A stretch of DNA of 42,609 nt from assembly GCA_964568815.1 (NCBI GenBank), contig CAZMRY010000002.1, positions 1-42,609 of the forward strand, written 5' to 3'. This DNA is from an uncultured Eubacteriales bacterium. Its GTDB lineage: Bacteria; Bacillota; Clostridia; RGIG6154. The translations under genes and the position numbers were made by a program. The notes below the pieces were generated by a model that was given only the letters and a program-made list of their open reading frames with translations, was not told the origin of the DNA and made no database searches. This document shows, one piece after another, positions 39,993 through 42,609 of the stretch (positions within the stretch are counted from its first letter, which is position 1; each line of letters starts with the position of its first letter).

Positions 39993-40006
39993 ATGGCTCT
40001 TTTTTT
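39983..40006 (+). terminator. intrinsic terminator after the amidohydrolase gene
   Basis: GAGCC-TTAAAT-GGCTC followed by TTTTTTT. The stem is short. Confidence 0.55.
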
Positions 40007-40050
40007 ATGGACTGGCAAAAATATACATTTTTTTCATATAAAGTTATGAG

Positions 40051-40755
40051 GTGTTTATTTTGTTTGAATTCATAAGTATTTTTACACAACAGATATTCTT
40101 TTTAATTTCGTACGTTTCCTCAGGGAATTCTTTTCCTAAACCATTAACAACCGAAGAAGAACTATATTATCTTAAAAAATGTAAAAATGGTGATATAGAT
40201 GCAAGAAATATACTTGTAGAGAAGAATATGAGGTTGGTTGCTCACATAGCCAAAAAATATGGAACAAGTTCACTTGAGTATGAAGATATGCTTTCTATAG
40301 GTGCAATAGGTCTTATAAAAGCTATAAATACTTTTGATTTTGAAAAAGGAAACAAACTTGGCACATATGCTTCAAGATGCATCGACAACGAAATATTGAT
40401 GGTAATAAGAAATATTAAAAAGTCTGCTAATGATGTTTCCCTTGATGAACCAATAGGAAAGGATAAAGAGGGGAATGAAATAACATTTATTGATATAATA
40501 ACCTCCGATGATGAAGATGTAGTTGAAAATGTCACAAAAAAAGGTTATATTAAAAAATTATATGATATTATTGATGATGTATTAAGTGAGCGTGAAAAAA
40601 TGATAATAGTATATCGATTTGGTTTATATGATACAGATACAATGACTCAGCAAGAGTTGGCTGATGAGCTCAATATATCAAGGTCATATATTTCCAGGAT
40701 AGAAAAGAAGGCACTTAACAAATTAAGAAAAGCCCTTAAAATATCGTACCTATAA
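40051..40755 (+). CDS. sigK: RNA polymerase sporulation sigma factor SigK, as uninterrupted pro-sigma-K
   Basis: FFLIS/YVSSGNSFPKPLT matches the B. subtilis pro-sigma-K processing region (FLVS/YVKNNAFPQPLS). ARNILVEKNMRLVAHIAKKY, DEPIGKDKEGNEI and ISRSYISRIEKKAL are also present. GTG 40051 gives a 20-aa pro-peptide; TTG 40060 is an alternative. Confidence 0.92.
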   Translation: MFILFEFISIFTQQIFFLISYVSSGNSFPKPLTTEEELYYLKKCKNGDIDARNILVEKNMRLVAHIAKKYGTSSLEYEDMLSIGAIGLIKAINTFDFEKGNKLGTYASRCIDNEILMVIRNIKKSANDVSLDEPIGKDKEGNEITFIDIITSDDEDVVENVTKKGYIKKLYDIIDDVLSEREKMIIVYRFGLYDTDTMTQQELADELNISRSYISRIEKKALNKLRKALKISYL

Positions 40756-40759
40756 CCCG

Positions 40760-40804
40760 ATTTTCTGTGAAACGAACTTTTGGTTGAGATTTCGCAGAGA
40801 AATT
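40760..40804 (+). repeat. left arm of the 45-nt imperfect inverted repeat (partner 42498-42543)
   Basis: ATTTTCTGTGAAACGAACTTTTGGTTGAGATTTCGCAGAGAAATT compared with the reverse complement of the right arm, ATTTTCTATGGAATAATTTTTTCATTGAGATTTCGCAGGAAAAATT. 35/45 identical, with a perfect 14-mer TTGAGATTTCGCAG (40784-40797). Confidence 0.7.
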
Positions 40805-40868
40805 GAATTGTATTGAGCTAATATGTCCATTTTTTATGTATAGTTTATGGTGTAGCAAAGTTCCGCAT

Positions 40869-40992
40869 ATTATAAACAATATTAGAGGTTTTATAAAATC
40901 TGCCAAAAGTTTTATAAAATCTCTTTTTGCTTTTATAAAGAGATGCAGAAGGTTTATAAAAACTGTGGAGAATGTTAATTTTACTTATAAAA
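40869..40992. repeat. phased array of the palindromic motif TTTATAAA (iteron-like)
   Basis: TATAAA cores start at 40871, 40892, 40913, 40934 and 40955 (exactly 21 bp apart) and at 40986 (+31). Copies 2 and 3 share GTTTTATAAAATCT. Confidence 0.75.
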
Positions 40993-41112
40993 GGCTTCTC
41001 CTTGAGGAGAGGCTCCGCCGTAGGCGGTGGTGAGGTGTAGCCGCTTGCGGCGTTTGTTTTTCCACCTCATCTGAGTTGCTACGCAACCCACCTTCCCCTC
41101 AAGGGGAAGGCT
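40993..41112. repeat. GC-rich palindromic MITE/REP-like element with six hairpins and inverted terminal CCTTGAGG hairpins
   Basis: Hairpins: CTTCTCC-TTGA-GGAGAGG (40995-41012); CCGCC-GTA-GGCGG (41015-27); GGTGAGGTG/CACCTCATC (41029-37/41063-71) enclosing GCCG-CTTG-CGGC (41040-51); GTTGC-TAC-GCAAC (41075-87); CCTTCCCC-TCAA-GGGGAAGG (41091-41110). Confidence 0.7.
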
Positions 41113-41308
41113 TTGGATAATCTACCTCAAAAGTGTCATTTATAAGTATCGGAAAAATACCGAAGATTTTTCAACCGCACTTCTTTTATGATTTTACCTC
41201 ATAAAAAGTAAGTTTTTTAAAAATTAATAAGGCAAAAAGAAAAAGTGTTGGTTTTTTAAAAACACTTTTACAAATTAGTACAAAATTGTATATATTTATA
41301 AAAATCTA

Positions 41309-41337
41309 TTGACAAGAACAAATTTGTGTGTTATACT
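41309..41337 (+). promoter_or_regulatory. strong sigma-A promoter TTGACA-17-TATACT with extended -10 (TGT)
   Basis: TTGACA 41309-41314, 17-nt spacer, TGTTATACT 41329-41337. GAGGTGA RBS 41345-41351 precedes ATG 41357. Confidence 0.7.
41318..41327. promoter_or_regulatory. perfect 10-bp palindrome ACAAATTTGT inside the promoter spacer (candidate operator)
   Basis: Self-complementary 10-mer located between the -35 and -10 elements. Confidence 0.5.
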
Positions 41338-41356
41338 CTGTTTAGAGGTGAAAACA

Positions 41357-42058
41357 ATGGAAGTAAAAATTTCAATGGAAGAAAACCTGTACAAAAGCTT
41401 ACAAATGGCATTACAAATCAACAATGAGACGCTTGAAAAAGTGGCTGATAGTATATTTAGAAACTACATATCAAAAACATTTTCAAAAGCCGCAACTGCT
41501 ATTGAGTCTGGAAACACAAAAAGTCAGTTACAAAATGAAGACCCTAACTACGGGAAGGCAATTTATAGAATTCCTAAATGGGCAAAAAAGCATAGTCAAA
41601 TCAATCATAAAATCATTCGGGCTTTTCTAAAACTTGCTCAAAATGGTGTAGTTGCATATGAAGATTTATTGAGAGAATGTACCAATCCCGATTCGGATGT
41701 TTTTGTACCAACATTTTCTTCAAATTTTGCACAAATGAAGTTTGACGGCGATAAATCTCACGGCAAGGTTTTTGTTGTTGATAATAGCAACATTGTAACT
41801 ATATGGGAATATGTAGAAGATACTGTATTTAAGTATAAGGAGGATTTTTTGAGTATGAGACCGACAGATATTGGCTATATTAACCGAAACAACCAACAAA
41901 ACATATCTAAAACAGATTGTGATGGAAACGACTACATGCAAAAATTATATATTATGCGTTGTATGGATTGTGGCGAAGAATATCCCTCTAACGGCAGCAA
42001 TATTTATGAAAAAAAGTGCCCTAAATGTCAAGGTGGTGCTGATATGGATACGAATTAA
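41357..42058 (+). CDS. hypothetical DNA-binding-type protein: N-terminal RHH-like segment, central helical (possibly winged-helix) region, C-terminal CxxC-N16-CxxC zinc ribbon
   Basis: 233 aa. MEVKISMEENLYKSLQMALQ... fits a strand-helix-helix pattern. CMDCGEEY...KCPKCQGG forms a zinc ribbon. Good RBS and promoter. No family recognised. Confidence 0.6.
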   Translation: MEVKISMEENLYKSLQMALQINNETLEKVADSIFRNYISKTFSKAATAIESGNTKSQLQNEDPNYGKAIYRIPKWAKKHSQINHKIIRAFLKLAQNGVVAYEDLLRECTNPDSDVFVPTFSSNFAQMKFDGDKSHGKVFVVDNSNIVTIWEYVEDTVFKYKEDFLSMRPTDIGYINRNNQQNISKTDCDGNDYMQKLYIMRCMDCGEEYPSNGSNIYEKKCPKCQGGADMDTN

Positions 42059-42059
42059 A

Positions 42060-42458
42060 ATGGTTGGTATAATTTGGATATTTATAGTTTACATTGCAGG
42101 CAAAATTCTTAAACTAATGTTTTATGGTGCTATAACGGCAATAACATTATATATTCTATACCATTTATATCACTTTTTGAAATGTAAATATGTTTTTTCT
42201 AATTTGGAAAAAGTTAAAAGAGTAGAGATATCTAAACCCATTCAGTTATATAAGGTTGTAAATGAAATGACTGGTTTTTCTATCGGCTACCATTATACAG
42301 AACATTATAAAACAAGAAAAATACCAGATTGTAAGCTTTATAAAATTAAAGTAATTTTCAAAAATGATAATACAATGAATATTCAATTCAAAGACAATTC
42401 GCAATTTTACACAGAAATGATAAAAGCTGAAGGATTGTACAATAATCTTCGGGGCTGA
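42060..42458 (+). CDS. hypothetical small membrane protein (2 predicted TM helices plus a ~90-aa soluble beta-rich C-domain)
   Basis: 132 aa. ATG lies 1 nt after the upstream TAA, suggesting translational coupling. IIWIFIVYIAGKILKLMFYGAITAITLYILYHLYHFL is hydrophobic. No family recognised. Confidence 0.55.
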   Translation: MVGIIWIFIVYIAGKILKLMFYGAITAITLYILYHLYHFLKCKYVFSNLEKVKRVEISKPIQLYKVVNEMTGFSIGYHYTEHYKTRKIPDCKLYKIKVIFKNDNTMNIQFKDNSQFYTEMIKAEGLYNNLRG

Positions 42459-42476
42459 AATAGCCCCGATTTTTTG
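42450..42476 (+). terminator. intrinsic terminator of the two-gene operon
   Basis: CGGGGCT-GAAAT-AGCCCCG followed by ATTTTTTG. The stop codon lies inside the hairpin. Confidence 0.8.
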
Positions 42477-42497
42477 TGTTTACACTTTTGTTGTTTT

Positions 42498-42543
42498 AAT
42501 TTTTCCTGCGAAATCTCAATGAAAAAATTATTCCATAGAAAAT
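42498..42543 (-). repeat. right arm of the imperfect inverted repeat (partner 40760-40804)
   Basis: Contains CTGCGAAATCTCAA (42506-42519), the exact reverse complement of 40784-40797. Overall 35/45 identity to the left arm. Confidence 0.7.
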
Positions 42544-42569
42544 TAAGTTATAAGATATCGTAAAATGTA

Positions 42570-42598
42570 TTGACTTAGAATTTCCATCGTGGTAAAAT
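42570..42598 (+). promoter_or_regulatory. outward-facing sigma-A promoter TTGACT-17-TAAAAT (extended -10 TGG) at the window edge
   Basis: TTGACT 42570-42575, 17-nt spacer, TGGTAAAAT 42590-42598. Its target gene lies beyond the window. Confidence 0.55.
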
Positions 42599-42609
42599 AA
42601 TTAAAATTA

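What the first reader, a model, noticed from the sequence alone, without database searches (positions are those of the whole stretch)
40869..40992. Palindromic TTTATAAA motif repeated five times at exactly 21-bp phase (plus a sixth at +31): iteron-like protein-binding array
TATAAA cores start at 40871, 40892, 40913, 40934 and 40955, spaced 21 bp or two helical turns. Another starts at 40986, 31 bp or about three turns further on. All sites therefore lie on one face of the helix. Cores are conserved (GTTTTATAAAATCT appears twice) while the 11-13 nt between them vary, as expected for binding sites rather than a slipped duplication. Further copies occur at 41139-41146 and at 41294-41306 (ATTTATAAAAATCT), the latter abutting the -35 of the cassette promoter. 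The layout is phased direct repeats, then an AT-rich tract (about 41115-41308), then a promoter with a palindrome, then a DNA-binding protein gene. This mirrors iteron-type plasmid or phage replicons and partition or regulatory site arrays. One near-DnaA box (TGTGGAGAA, reverse complement TTCTCCACA, 40964-40972) lies inside the array. Alternative reading: in frame +3 the repeat encodes F-I-K heptads of a 76-aa cationic amphipathic ORF (40803-41033).
Basis: seen in the sequence. Interest (0 to 1): 0.65.

Follow-up and report, generated by a model that had tools for sequence, protein, structure and literature searches.

The report
Transposon left-end phased repeat array
The five evenly spaced TTTATAAA sites are real, but they are the shortened remnant of a long phased repeat array that sits between the left end and the transposase promoter of an IS1595-family jumping gene, here a transposase-less copy inserted into the stop codon of sigK, not a plasmid-type replication or partition site.

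Summary
TATAAA cores lie at 40871, 40892, 40913, 40934 and 40955 at an exact 21-bp phase, and this is the only such chain in the 1.73-Mb genome.

The context changes the reading. Window 40749-42554 (1806 bp) is an insertion that same-genus genomes lack. It has an 8-bp target duplication (ATATCGTA) and roughly 60-bp imperfect inverted ends.

Full-length relatives carry, in order:
- the left end
- 5-20 TTTTATAAA cores at 21/22 bp
- a sigma-70 promoter
- a 544-aa IS1595-family transposase
- a variable passenger module
- the right end

The window copy has lost the promoter and transposase. It keeps array units 1-4 plus the promoter-proximal unit.

The array follows the transposase and ends, not the 233-aa passenger protein. 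It is present with other passengers, in gene-less MITEs, and with transposases down to about 45% identity. It is absent next to homologues of the 233-aa gene outside the element.

- The 76-aa ORF, the sixth site, the promoter-adjacent "copy" and the DnaA-like box are not conserved.
- Most likely function: a one-face protein-binding platform acting as operator or enhancer for the transposon's left end. The binder is unproven.
- This is a new variant of a known kind, of moderate interest.

The parts
40051..40755 (+). sigK (sporulation sigma factor K). Its stop codon was hit by the insertion, so the reading frame now ends ...KISYL* using the first bases of the element.
   Evidence: NCBIfam SigK: NF004471 at 311.8 bits and TIGR02846 at 309.4 bits. 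Junction read.
40741..40748 (.). Left copy of the 8-bp target-site duplication, ATATCGTA.
   Evidence: Identical 8-mer on both flanks. The empty site is seen in same-genus genomes L012 and L013.
40749..40808 (+). Left inverted repeat (IRL, about 60 bp, imperfect). The tip is CCTATAAC and the inner block is TTGAGATTTCGCAG.
   Evidence: 76% match to the reverse complement of 42495-42552. 78-84% identical to the ends of copies in other genomes.
40868..40976 (.). The finding: five units of the TTTTATAAA array at 21-bp phase. Units 1-4 match the first four units of full-length copies. Unit 5 (TTTATAAAAACTGTGGAGAATG...) matches the last, promoter-proximal unit of full-length copies.
40986..41114 (.). 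GC-rich 125-nt structured repeat from a separate dispersed family. It occupies the place of the transposase promoter and gene. The 'sixth TATAAA' sits at its edge.
   Evidence: 15 BLAST hits in the own genome and many in relatives. Folding z-scores are -4.4 (+ strand) and -5.3 (- strand). No Rfam family matched.
41126..41270 (+). Conserved spacer that follows the transposase stop codon in full-length copies. It contains the hairpin AAAGTGTT...AACACTTT (41242-41268).
   Evidence: Aligns from the first bases after the transposase stop in L031 and L032. About 80% identical in G007, G026, G012 and G017.
41280..41337 (+). Passenger-module promoter. The -35 is TTGACA (41309-41314) and the -10 is TATACT (41332-41337). 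Palindromes are ACAAAATTGT at 41280-41289, a degenerate one at 41295-41308, and ACAAATTTGT at 41318-41327. These are probably the operators of the 233-aa protein.
   Evidence: Promoter scan scored 11 of 12 with a TG extension. The palindromes are conserved in sister copies and at the promoter of a 52%-identical homologue outside the element.
41357..42058 (+). Passenger gene 1: a 233-aa protein of unknown function with a C-terminal CxxC...CxxC zinc ribbon.
   Evidence: No Pfam or NCBIfam family above cut-off. 81 homologues found, many on 1-2-kb contigs. AF2 pLDDT is 86 with no PDB fold match at E<1.
42060..42458 (+). Passenger gene 2: a 132-aa protein with a hydrophobic N-terminus.
   Evidence: ORF list. 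No family matched. Co-occurs with gene 1 in L031-L035.
42449..42469 (+). Intrinsic terminator of the passenger operon.
   Evidence: 9-pair stem with 6 G-C pairs and a T run.
42495..42554 (-). Right inverted repeat (IRR). No TTTATAAA array lies inside this end.
42555..42562 (.). Right copy of the target-site duplication, ATATCGTA. It is followed by the promoter of the next host gene, which directly follows sigK in relatives.

Best explanation
**Shown**

The five phased TTTATAAA sites are what is left of the left-subterminal repeat array of an IS1595-family transposon.
- Window 40749-42554 is a non-autonomous, transposase-deleted copy. It inserted into the stop codon of sigK and made an 8-bp target duplication.
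- In autonomous relatives the order is: left inverted repeat; about 60 bp; 5 to about 20 palindromic TTTTATAAA(A) cores at a 21/22-bp (two-turn) period with free spacers; a sigma-70 promoter immediately after the last unit; the 544-aa transposase; a passenger module with its own promoter; the right inverted repeat.

**Inferred**
- The array is a cis-acting platform on which a dimeric protein binds the palindromic cores cooperatively along one face of the DNA.
- The binder is most likely the element's own transposase, with a host architectural protein second.
- The platform would link the left end to the transposase promoter. It would act as an operator, setting transposase expression, and/or as an enhancer, helping left-end complex assembly.
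- The nearest functional analogue is the operator/enhancer region near the left end of phage Mu.
- In the window copy the array has no promoter left to control. It can matter only for mobilisation in trans.
For: **The segment is an insertion.**
- Same-genus genomes join the sigK 3' end directly to window 42566 onward.
- Six of seven complete copies in different contexts have perfect 8-bp duplications of different sequence.

**The transposase belongs to the IS1595 family.**
- NF033547 (IS1595 family transposase) scores 79.5 bits against a 75-bit cut-off. The IS1/IS1595 zinc domain is also present.
- IS1595-family members are usually flanked by 8-bp target duplications (PMC8101967; PMC12561309).

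**Array layout.**
- The layout is seen in L031, L032, L053-L055 and L062.
- The array goes with the transposon backbone. It is present with three different passenger modules.
- It is present upstream of transposases at 77, 60, 53, 48, 45 and 44% identity, where the end sequences have diverged but the core has not.
- It is absent from IS1595 relatives at 24-35% identity.

**Retention in derivatives.**
- Two gene-less MITEs consist of left end, 8-14 units and right end, with target duplications.
- Transposase-less derivatives in four or more contexts also keep the array.

**Properties of a binding array.**
- Information is confined to about 10 bp.
- 85% of 246 steps are 21 or 22 bp.
- The last unit abuts the -35.
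Against: **No binding data exist and the binder is unidentified.**
- The array is on one end only. Classical transposase-binding subterminal repeats (Tn7, Mu) occur at both ends.
- Unit number varies from 5 to 20 among copies whose transposases are at least 95% identical.
- Two clades at 47% identity lack the array. It is therefore not essential for the chemistry.
- Arrays with the same core and phase occur in other Clostridia mobile elements that lack this transposase. This favours a host factor or a generic DNA property.
- The transposase model is only of moderate quality (pLDDT 70) and showed no identifiable extra DNA-binding fold.
Confidence: 0.55

Rival explanations
1. Host-factor platform. 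The cores are bound by a host nucleoid-associated or regulatory protein of these Clostridia, not by the transposase. The protein coats the A/T-rich array to silence or insulate the transposase promoter, or to bend the left end.
For: - Five-unit TTTTATAAAA arrays at 21-22 bp with free spacers also lie next to small serine-recombinase genes in integrase-bearing islands that have no IS1595 transposase (L103, L115, L135).
- The core is invariant while the inverted repeats diverge.
Against: - The own genome has no other phased chain and only 4 phased pairs, so there is no sign of a host regulon that uses such arrays.
- Within the IS1595 family the array is restricted to one transposase clade.
- No candidate host protein is known.
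Confidence: 0.25
2. No sequence-specific function. The array is a slippage-prone tandem repeat or a generic flexible, easily melted A/T spacer that hitch-hikes in the transposon.
For: - Copy number varies 5-20 among near-identical elements.
- Some clades lack the array.
- From established knowledge, T4A4-type tracts are not intrinsically curved (Hagerman 1986). No structural role is therefore evident.
Against: - The core and the 21/22-bp phase are kept across transposase divergence to about 45% identity, while the spacers are randomised.
- The first unit and the promoter-proximal unit keep fixed positions.
- The array is retained in MITEs.
Confidence: 0.12
3. The array is a set of iterons, or a partition or regulatory site, of a plasmid or phage replicon, bound by the 233-aa protein encoded downstream.
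For: - The 21-bp phasing resembles plasmid iterons.
- The pattern scan also retrieved true whole-unit iterons on small plasmids (L081, L131).
- An A/T-rich tract and a strong promoter lie nearby.
Against: - The segment is a transposon with inverted ends, a target duplication and an empty site in relatives.
- There is no Rep or Par family hit.
- The array persists with other passengers and without any gene.
- Homologues of the 233-aa gene elsewhere lack the array and instead keep ACAAATTTGT palindromes.
- The DnaA-like box is not conserved.
- Only about 10 bp of each unit is conserved.
Confidence: 0.03
4. Coding heptad repeat of a 76-aa cationic peptide (40803-41033).
For: The window copy has an open frame that reads F-I-K every 7 codons.
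Against: - In L033, L034, L031, L032 and L055 the homologous frame has stops at each unit.
- Steps of 22 and 12 bp break any frame.
- The full-length L032 array has 5-15 stops in each of the six frames.
- No family matched.
Confidence: 0.01

Closest known systems
IS1595-family insertion sequences and transposons with passenger genes (ISNwi1- and ISNha5-type groups; Siguier, Gagnevin & Chandler 2009, as cited in PMC8101967 and PMC12561309)
   Same: - N-terminal zinc ribbon plus an IS1595-type DDE domain in the transposase of the full-length copies.
- 8-bp target duplications.
- Terminal inverted repeats.
- Passenger genes inside the ends.
   Different: - The transposase is 544 aa, with a C-terminal extension of about 150-200 aa.
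- The inverted repeats are about 60 bp.
- A 100-430-bp array of phased TTTTATAAA cores lies between the left end and the transposase promoter. I found no description of such an array. ISfinder could not be queried.
- The window copy has no transposase.
Phage Mu operator/enhancer (IAS) region, and the subterminal transposase-binding repeats of Tn7 and Mu (recalled from established knowledge; not tested here)
   Same: - Multiple short sites lie inside one end, close to the promoter that drives the transposition genes.
- The region is proposed to serve in both regulation and complex assembly.
- The spacing is about two helical turns, as for the 22-bp TnsB sites.
   Different: - The array here is on the left end only.
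- The core is palindromic.
- There are up to 20 units.
- The binder is unknown.
- There is no sequence relation.
Plasmid iterons (R6K, P1, F and pSC101 types)
   Same: Direct arrays with 21-22-bp periodicity, all on one helix face.
   Different: - In iterons the whole 17-22-bp unit is conserved, a rep gene lies next to the array, and DnaA boxes and an unwinding element are present.
- Here only about 10 bp of each unit is conserved, there is no Rep, and the array lies inside a transposon.
MITEs (non-autonomous derivatives of insertion sequences)
   Same: - The window copy and its 86%-identical sisters lack a transposase yet occur in several contexts with target duplications.
- Shorter gene-less forms exist, made of the left end, the array and the right end.
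   Different: - The window copy is 1.8 kb.
- It still carries two expressed-looking passenger genes and a nested GC-rich repeat.

Membership tests
IS1595-family transposable element | Transposase with an N-terminal zinc ribbon and an IS1595-type DDE domain | tested here: met
   The 544-aa protein of the full-length copies (P0082) matches NF033547 at 79.5 bits against a 75-bit cut-off, and NF050000 at 32.5 bits against 28. Pfam DDE_Tnp_IS1595 and Zn_ribbon_IS1595 are hit only below their cut-offs. The window copy and the whole own genome have no transposase.
IS1595-family transposable element | 8-bp target-site duplication | tested here: met
   Perfect 8-bp duplications occur in the window (ATATCGTA) and in L031, L032, L033, L055 and L062. 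Only L034 lacks one. The family trait is cited from PMC8101967.
IS1595-family transposable element | Terminal inverted repeats, and an empty site in relatives | tested here: met
   The ends are about 60 bp and imperfect. Same-genus genomes G001 and G003 join sigK directly to window 42566 onward.
IS1595-family transposable element | Assignment to a named ISfinder subgroup or element | not testable with these tools
   ISfinder is not available here. The closest PDB fold hits are IS256-family ISCth4 transposase at E of about 0.1 only.
Iteron-type plasmid or phage replicon | Adjacent replication initiator gene | tested here: not met
   No Rep family was found in the 233-aa or 132-aa proteins. The array occurs without these genes.
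Iteron-type plasmid or phage replicon | Whole repeat unit (17-22 bp) conserved | tested here: not met
   Only positions -2 to +7 around TTATAA carry information. The spacers carry 0-0.4 bits. True iterons retrieved by the same scan have whole units conserved.
Iteron-type plasmid or phage replicon | Conserved DnaA box or unwinding element beside the array | tested here: not met
   TGTGGAGAA is not conserved in sister or full-length copies. The A/T-rich tract is the conserved spacer that follows the transposase gene.
Iteron-type plasmid or phage replicon | Autonomous replication or incompatibility | not testable with these tools
   This needs a bench test.
Partition centromere array (parC/parS type) | Adjacent ParA/ParM NTPase and centromere-binding adaptor | tested here: not met
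   No such family is present in the element.
Subterminal transposase-binding repeats (Tn7/Mu type) | Repeats present inside both ends | tested here: not met
   There is no TTTATAAA array inside the right end of the window copy or of L055.
Subterminal transposase-binding repeats (Tn7/Mu type) | Retained in non-autonomous derivatives that still move | tested here: met
   MITEs in L146 (487 bp, 14 units) and L148 (about 8 units) have target duplications. The 1.8-kb derivative occurs in four or more contexts.
Subterminal transposase-binding repeats (Tn7/Mu type) | Bound by the transposase | not testable with these tools
The AF2 model of the transposase has pLDDT 70 and is uninformative on this point.
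Protein-coding heptad repeat (76-aa ORF) | Reading frame conserved in related copies | tested here: not met
   The homologous frame has stops at each unit in five other copies. Full arrays have at least 5 stops in all six frames.

The most novel reading that the evidence does not exclude
The array may be a previously undescribed kind of cis-regulatory architecture for a bacterial insertion sequence. In this reading, a long one-face filament platform of up to 20 palindromic sites spaced two helical turns apart polymerises the transposase or a partner protein between the left end and its own promoter. That would couple transposase dosage, cis-preference and end recognition. The platform would also be portable, since similar arrays appear in unrelated Clostridia mobile elements.
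Probability: 0.25. Interest if true: 0.6.

Novelty: new variant of a known kind. Interest (0 to 1): 0.42.

Why it matters
- **Annotation.** What looked like a replication or partition locus next to sigK is a 1.8-kb non-autonomous IS1595-type transposon inserted in the sigK stop codon.
- **Mobile-DNA biology.** A whole clade of IS1595-family elements in gut Clostridia carries a conserved two-turn-phased array of up to 20 palindromic sites between the left end and the transposase promoter. The array is kept in MITEs. If it is an operator or enhancer, it would be an unusually long and regular one for an insertion sequence. It can be tested directly with mini-elements that carry different unit numbers.
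- **Horizontal spread.** The elements move between bacterial families: transposases 96% identical occur in three families. They also shuttle small passenger modules of unknown function.

Tried and rejected
- **Rfam scan of 40000-42609 at E up to 10:** chance-level hits only.
- **Tandem Repeats Finder:** does not report the array because the spacers differ.
- **Pfam, NCBIfam, PDB sequence search and an AF2 model with Foldseek for the 233-aa protein:** no family and no fold match at E<1. 'DNA-binding protein' is therefore not established beyond the conserved promoter palindromes.
- **AF2 model with Foldseek, and Pfam on the N- and C-terminal pieces of the transposase:** only weak DDE-transposase matches (ISCth4, E of about 0.1) and no recognisable extra DNA-binding domain.
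- **phmmer of the transposase and the 233-aa protein against ORFs of the serine-recombinase islands that carry similar arrays:** nothing found.
- **Literature searches:** IS1595 with 'subterminal', IS1595 with passenger genes, IS1595 subgroup names (ISPna2, IS1016) and TTTTATAAAA gave no description of such an array.
- **Ungapped column-conservation test on units 1-4 among close copies:** only weakly informative (p = 0.02), because a few copies have indels and the copies are closely related. The cross-clade logo is the stronger evidence.
- **Intrinsic curvature:** rejected from established knowledge that T4A4-type phasing is not curved. It was not computed.

Full report
**1. The observation**

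Reading 40500-42609 confirms TATAAA cores at 40871, 40892, 40913, 40934 and 40955, at an exact 21-bp phase. A further core lies at 40986.
- The repeat finder groups three 33-nt copies at spacings of 21 and 42 bp.
- Tandem Repeats Finder misses the array because the spacers differ.
- TTTATAAA is not enriched in the window overall: 9 found against 5.8 expected. The phasing, however, is far from chance.
- No shuffle out of 20,000 of the 601-bp intergenic region gave a chain longer than 2. In the whole 1.73-Mb genome (GC 36%) this is the only chain longer than 2.

**2. The context: an insertion**

The gene upstream (40051-40755) is sigK.

A DNA search of 40 related genomes gave two key results.
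- In two same-genus genomes the sigK 3' end is followed within a few bases by sequence matching window 42566-42602. Window 40749-42554 (1806 bp) is therefore an insertion.
- Pieces of the inserted segment, including the array, are 80-82% identical to DNA in genomes of other families.

The insertion is flanked by the direct repeat ATATCGTA (40741-48 and 42555-62). It ends in imperfect inverted repeats of about 60 bp. It hit the sigK stop codon, so the frame now ends KISYL* instead of KIS*.

The window is the whole contig. The genome holds one copy of the element and no matching transposase.

**3. What the element is**

The 233-aa protein has 81 homologues, many on 1-2-kb contigs. Its 85%-identical relative lies in at least four different neighbourhoods.

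Comparison with the window shows two forms:
- L033 and L034 are full-length sister copies of the 1.8-kb element, 86% identical.
- In L031 and L032 the same ends and passenger genes enclose an extra 544-aa gene.

That 544-aa protein matches the NCBIfam IS1595-family transposase model above its cut-off and has the IS1/IS1595 zinc domain. The Pfam models are hit only weakly.

Six of seven complete copies have perfect 8-bp target duplications of different sequence. This size is the one usual for the IS1595 family (PMC8101967; PMC12561309).

Transposases 96% identical occur in genomes of three different families.

**4. The array in full-length copies**

In L031, L032, L053-L055 and L062 the space between the left inverted repeat and the transposase gene is filled by 8-20 copies of TTTTATAA(A/T). 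The array is followed at once by TTGACAAT-N17-TATAAT, a ribosome-binding site and the ATG.
- Over 27 distinct arrays, 85% of 246 core-to-core steps are 21 or 22 bp. Another 6% are 42-44 bp, where one core has degenerated, and 7% are 12 bp, where an extra core is present.
- A logo of 108 distinct units shows information only in about 10 bp, TTTTATAAA(A). The spacers are essentially free.
- The window keeps units 1-4 and a fifth unit that matches the last, promoter-proximal unit of full-length copies (AAACTGTTAGAAATGCCGATTTGACA has become AAACTGTGGAGAATGTTAATTTTAC).
- The promoter and transposase gene are replaced in the window by a GC-rich 125-nt repeat belonging to a separate dispersed family.

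**5. What the array goes with**

The array persists with different passenger modules:
- a DUF4180 protein in G192;
- an unrelated 160-aa protein in L062.

It also persists in derivatives:
- L014 has no transposase and 11 units.
- L146 is a gene-less MITE of 487 bp with 14 units, and L148 is one with about 8 units. Both have target duplications.

It is found upstream of transposase homologues at several identities, while the inverted repeats diverge:

| Transposase identity | Locus | Units |
|---|---|---|
| 77% | L062 | 12 or more |
| 60% | L063 | 5, exact 21 bp |
| 53% | L065 | 9 |
| 48% | L191, L215 | 4 |
| 45% | L216 | 8 |
| 44% | L107 | 10 |

It is absent from two clades at 47% identity (L066, L124), from the 35% clade, and from all 24-33% IS1595 relatives sampled.

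Conversely, homologues of the 233-aa gene outside the element (L036, L046) have no array. L036 keeps ACAAATTTGT palindromes at its promoter. Three such palindromes are conserved at the passenger promoter of the element.

**6. Readings that fail**

- **The 76-aa ORF.** The homologous frame has a stop at each unit in five other copies. Steps of 22 and 12 bp break any frame. Full arrays have at least 5 stops in all frames.
- **Replicon or partition site.** There is no Rep or Par family. The DnaA-like 9-mer is not conserved. The 'AT-rich tract' is the conserved spacer that follows the transposase stop codon. True iterons retrieved by the same pattern scan have whole units conserved.
- **The sixth site (40986).** It is not conserved in sister copies.

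**7. Mechanism**

Shown:
- The array has a conserved palindromic core.
- It has a two-turn phase.
- It occupies a fixed place between the left end and the transposase promoter.
- It has been kept through deep divergence and in MITEs.

Inferred:
- It is a one-face platform for cooperative binding of a dimeric protein. It would act as operator and/or enhancer for the left end, in the manner of the Mu operator/enhancer region.
- I rate the transposase as the most likely binder. The array is restricted to one transposase clade, it is retained in MITEs, and the host genome has no other phased sites.
- A host architectural protein is a serious rival. Five-unit arrays of the same core and phase occur beside serine-recombinase genes in other Clostridia islands that lack this transposase.
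- Structure prediction of the transposase (pLDDT 70) and of the 233-aa protein (pLDDT 86) gave no decisive fold matches.

**8. Verdict**

- The 'protein-binding array' idea is plausible and is strengthened by conservation.
- The replicon or partition reading and the link to the 233-aa gene are rejected.
- The thing is an IS1595-family transposon derivative. Its phased array is, as far as my searches show, an undescribed feature of that clade: a new variant of a known kind.

Noticed in passing
window 40986-41114: A GC-rich 125-nt element in an A/T-rich genome. It folds into a long closed multi-stem structure on either strand (z = -4.4 and -5.3). The own genome has 15 BLAST hits to it, and relatives (G005, G013, G017 and others) have many more, often at contig ends. 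No Rfam family matched. It looks like a REP/MITE-like dispersed repeat nested in the transposon.
   Followed up: partly
window 40741-40760: The transposon inserted into the sigK stop codon. The target duplication ATATCGTA contains TA of the old TAA, and the element's tip supplies a new stop. SigK therefore gains two residues (YL). This differs from the classical skin-type interruption of sigK.
   Followed up: partly
window 41280-41327; L036 2920-2975: Three ACAAAWTTGT palindromes lie around the -35 and -10 of the passenger promoter. They are conserved in sister copies and at the promoter of a 52%-identical homologue in an unrelated context. They are probably the autoregulatory operators of the 233-aa protein.
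   Followed up: partly
window 41357-42058: The 233-aa passenger protein belongs to an uncharacterised family of about 80 members. It has a conserved C-terminal CxxC...CxxC zinc ribbon and a confident AF2 model (pLDDT 86), but no PDB fold match. Distant relatives carry DUF7160/DUF7129 zinc ribbons, and one carries a PD-(D/E)XK/HSDR_N domain.
   Followed up: partly
L103 5768-5851; L115 5821-5907; L135 7159-7245: Five-unit TTTTATAAAA arrays at 21-22 bp with free spacers lie just 3' of small serine-recombinase genes, in islands that also carry tyrosine integrases. These islands have no IS1595 transposase. The first unit in L103 shares TTATAAACAATAT with the first unit of the transposon array.
   Followed up: partly
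L053 (G298), L054 (G128), L055 (G192): Transposases 96% identical to each other occur in genomes assigned to three different families of the class. This indicates recent horizontal spread of the element.
   Followed up: no
L016 (G012:C89, reverse strand), about 230-330 nt inside the left end: In this variant the array (about 5 units) is followed by a promoter-like TATAAT. After that come a GC-rich leader (GGAGAAATCCGATAGGCAGTTCGGG...GGGGGTGATCGC) and a short hydrophobic ORF, in place of the transposase. The leader was not examined.
   Followed up: no
L034 283-2086: This is the one complete copy without a matching 8-bp duplication (ATTTTAGA against ATAAAAAA). It may reflect recombination between copies or a chimeric metagenome contig.
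   Followed up: no
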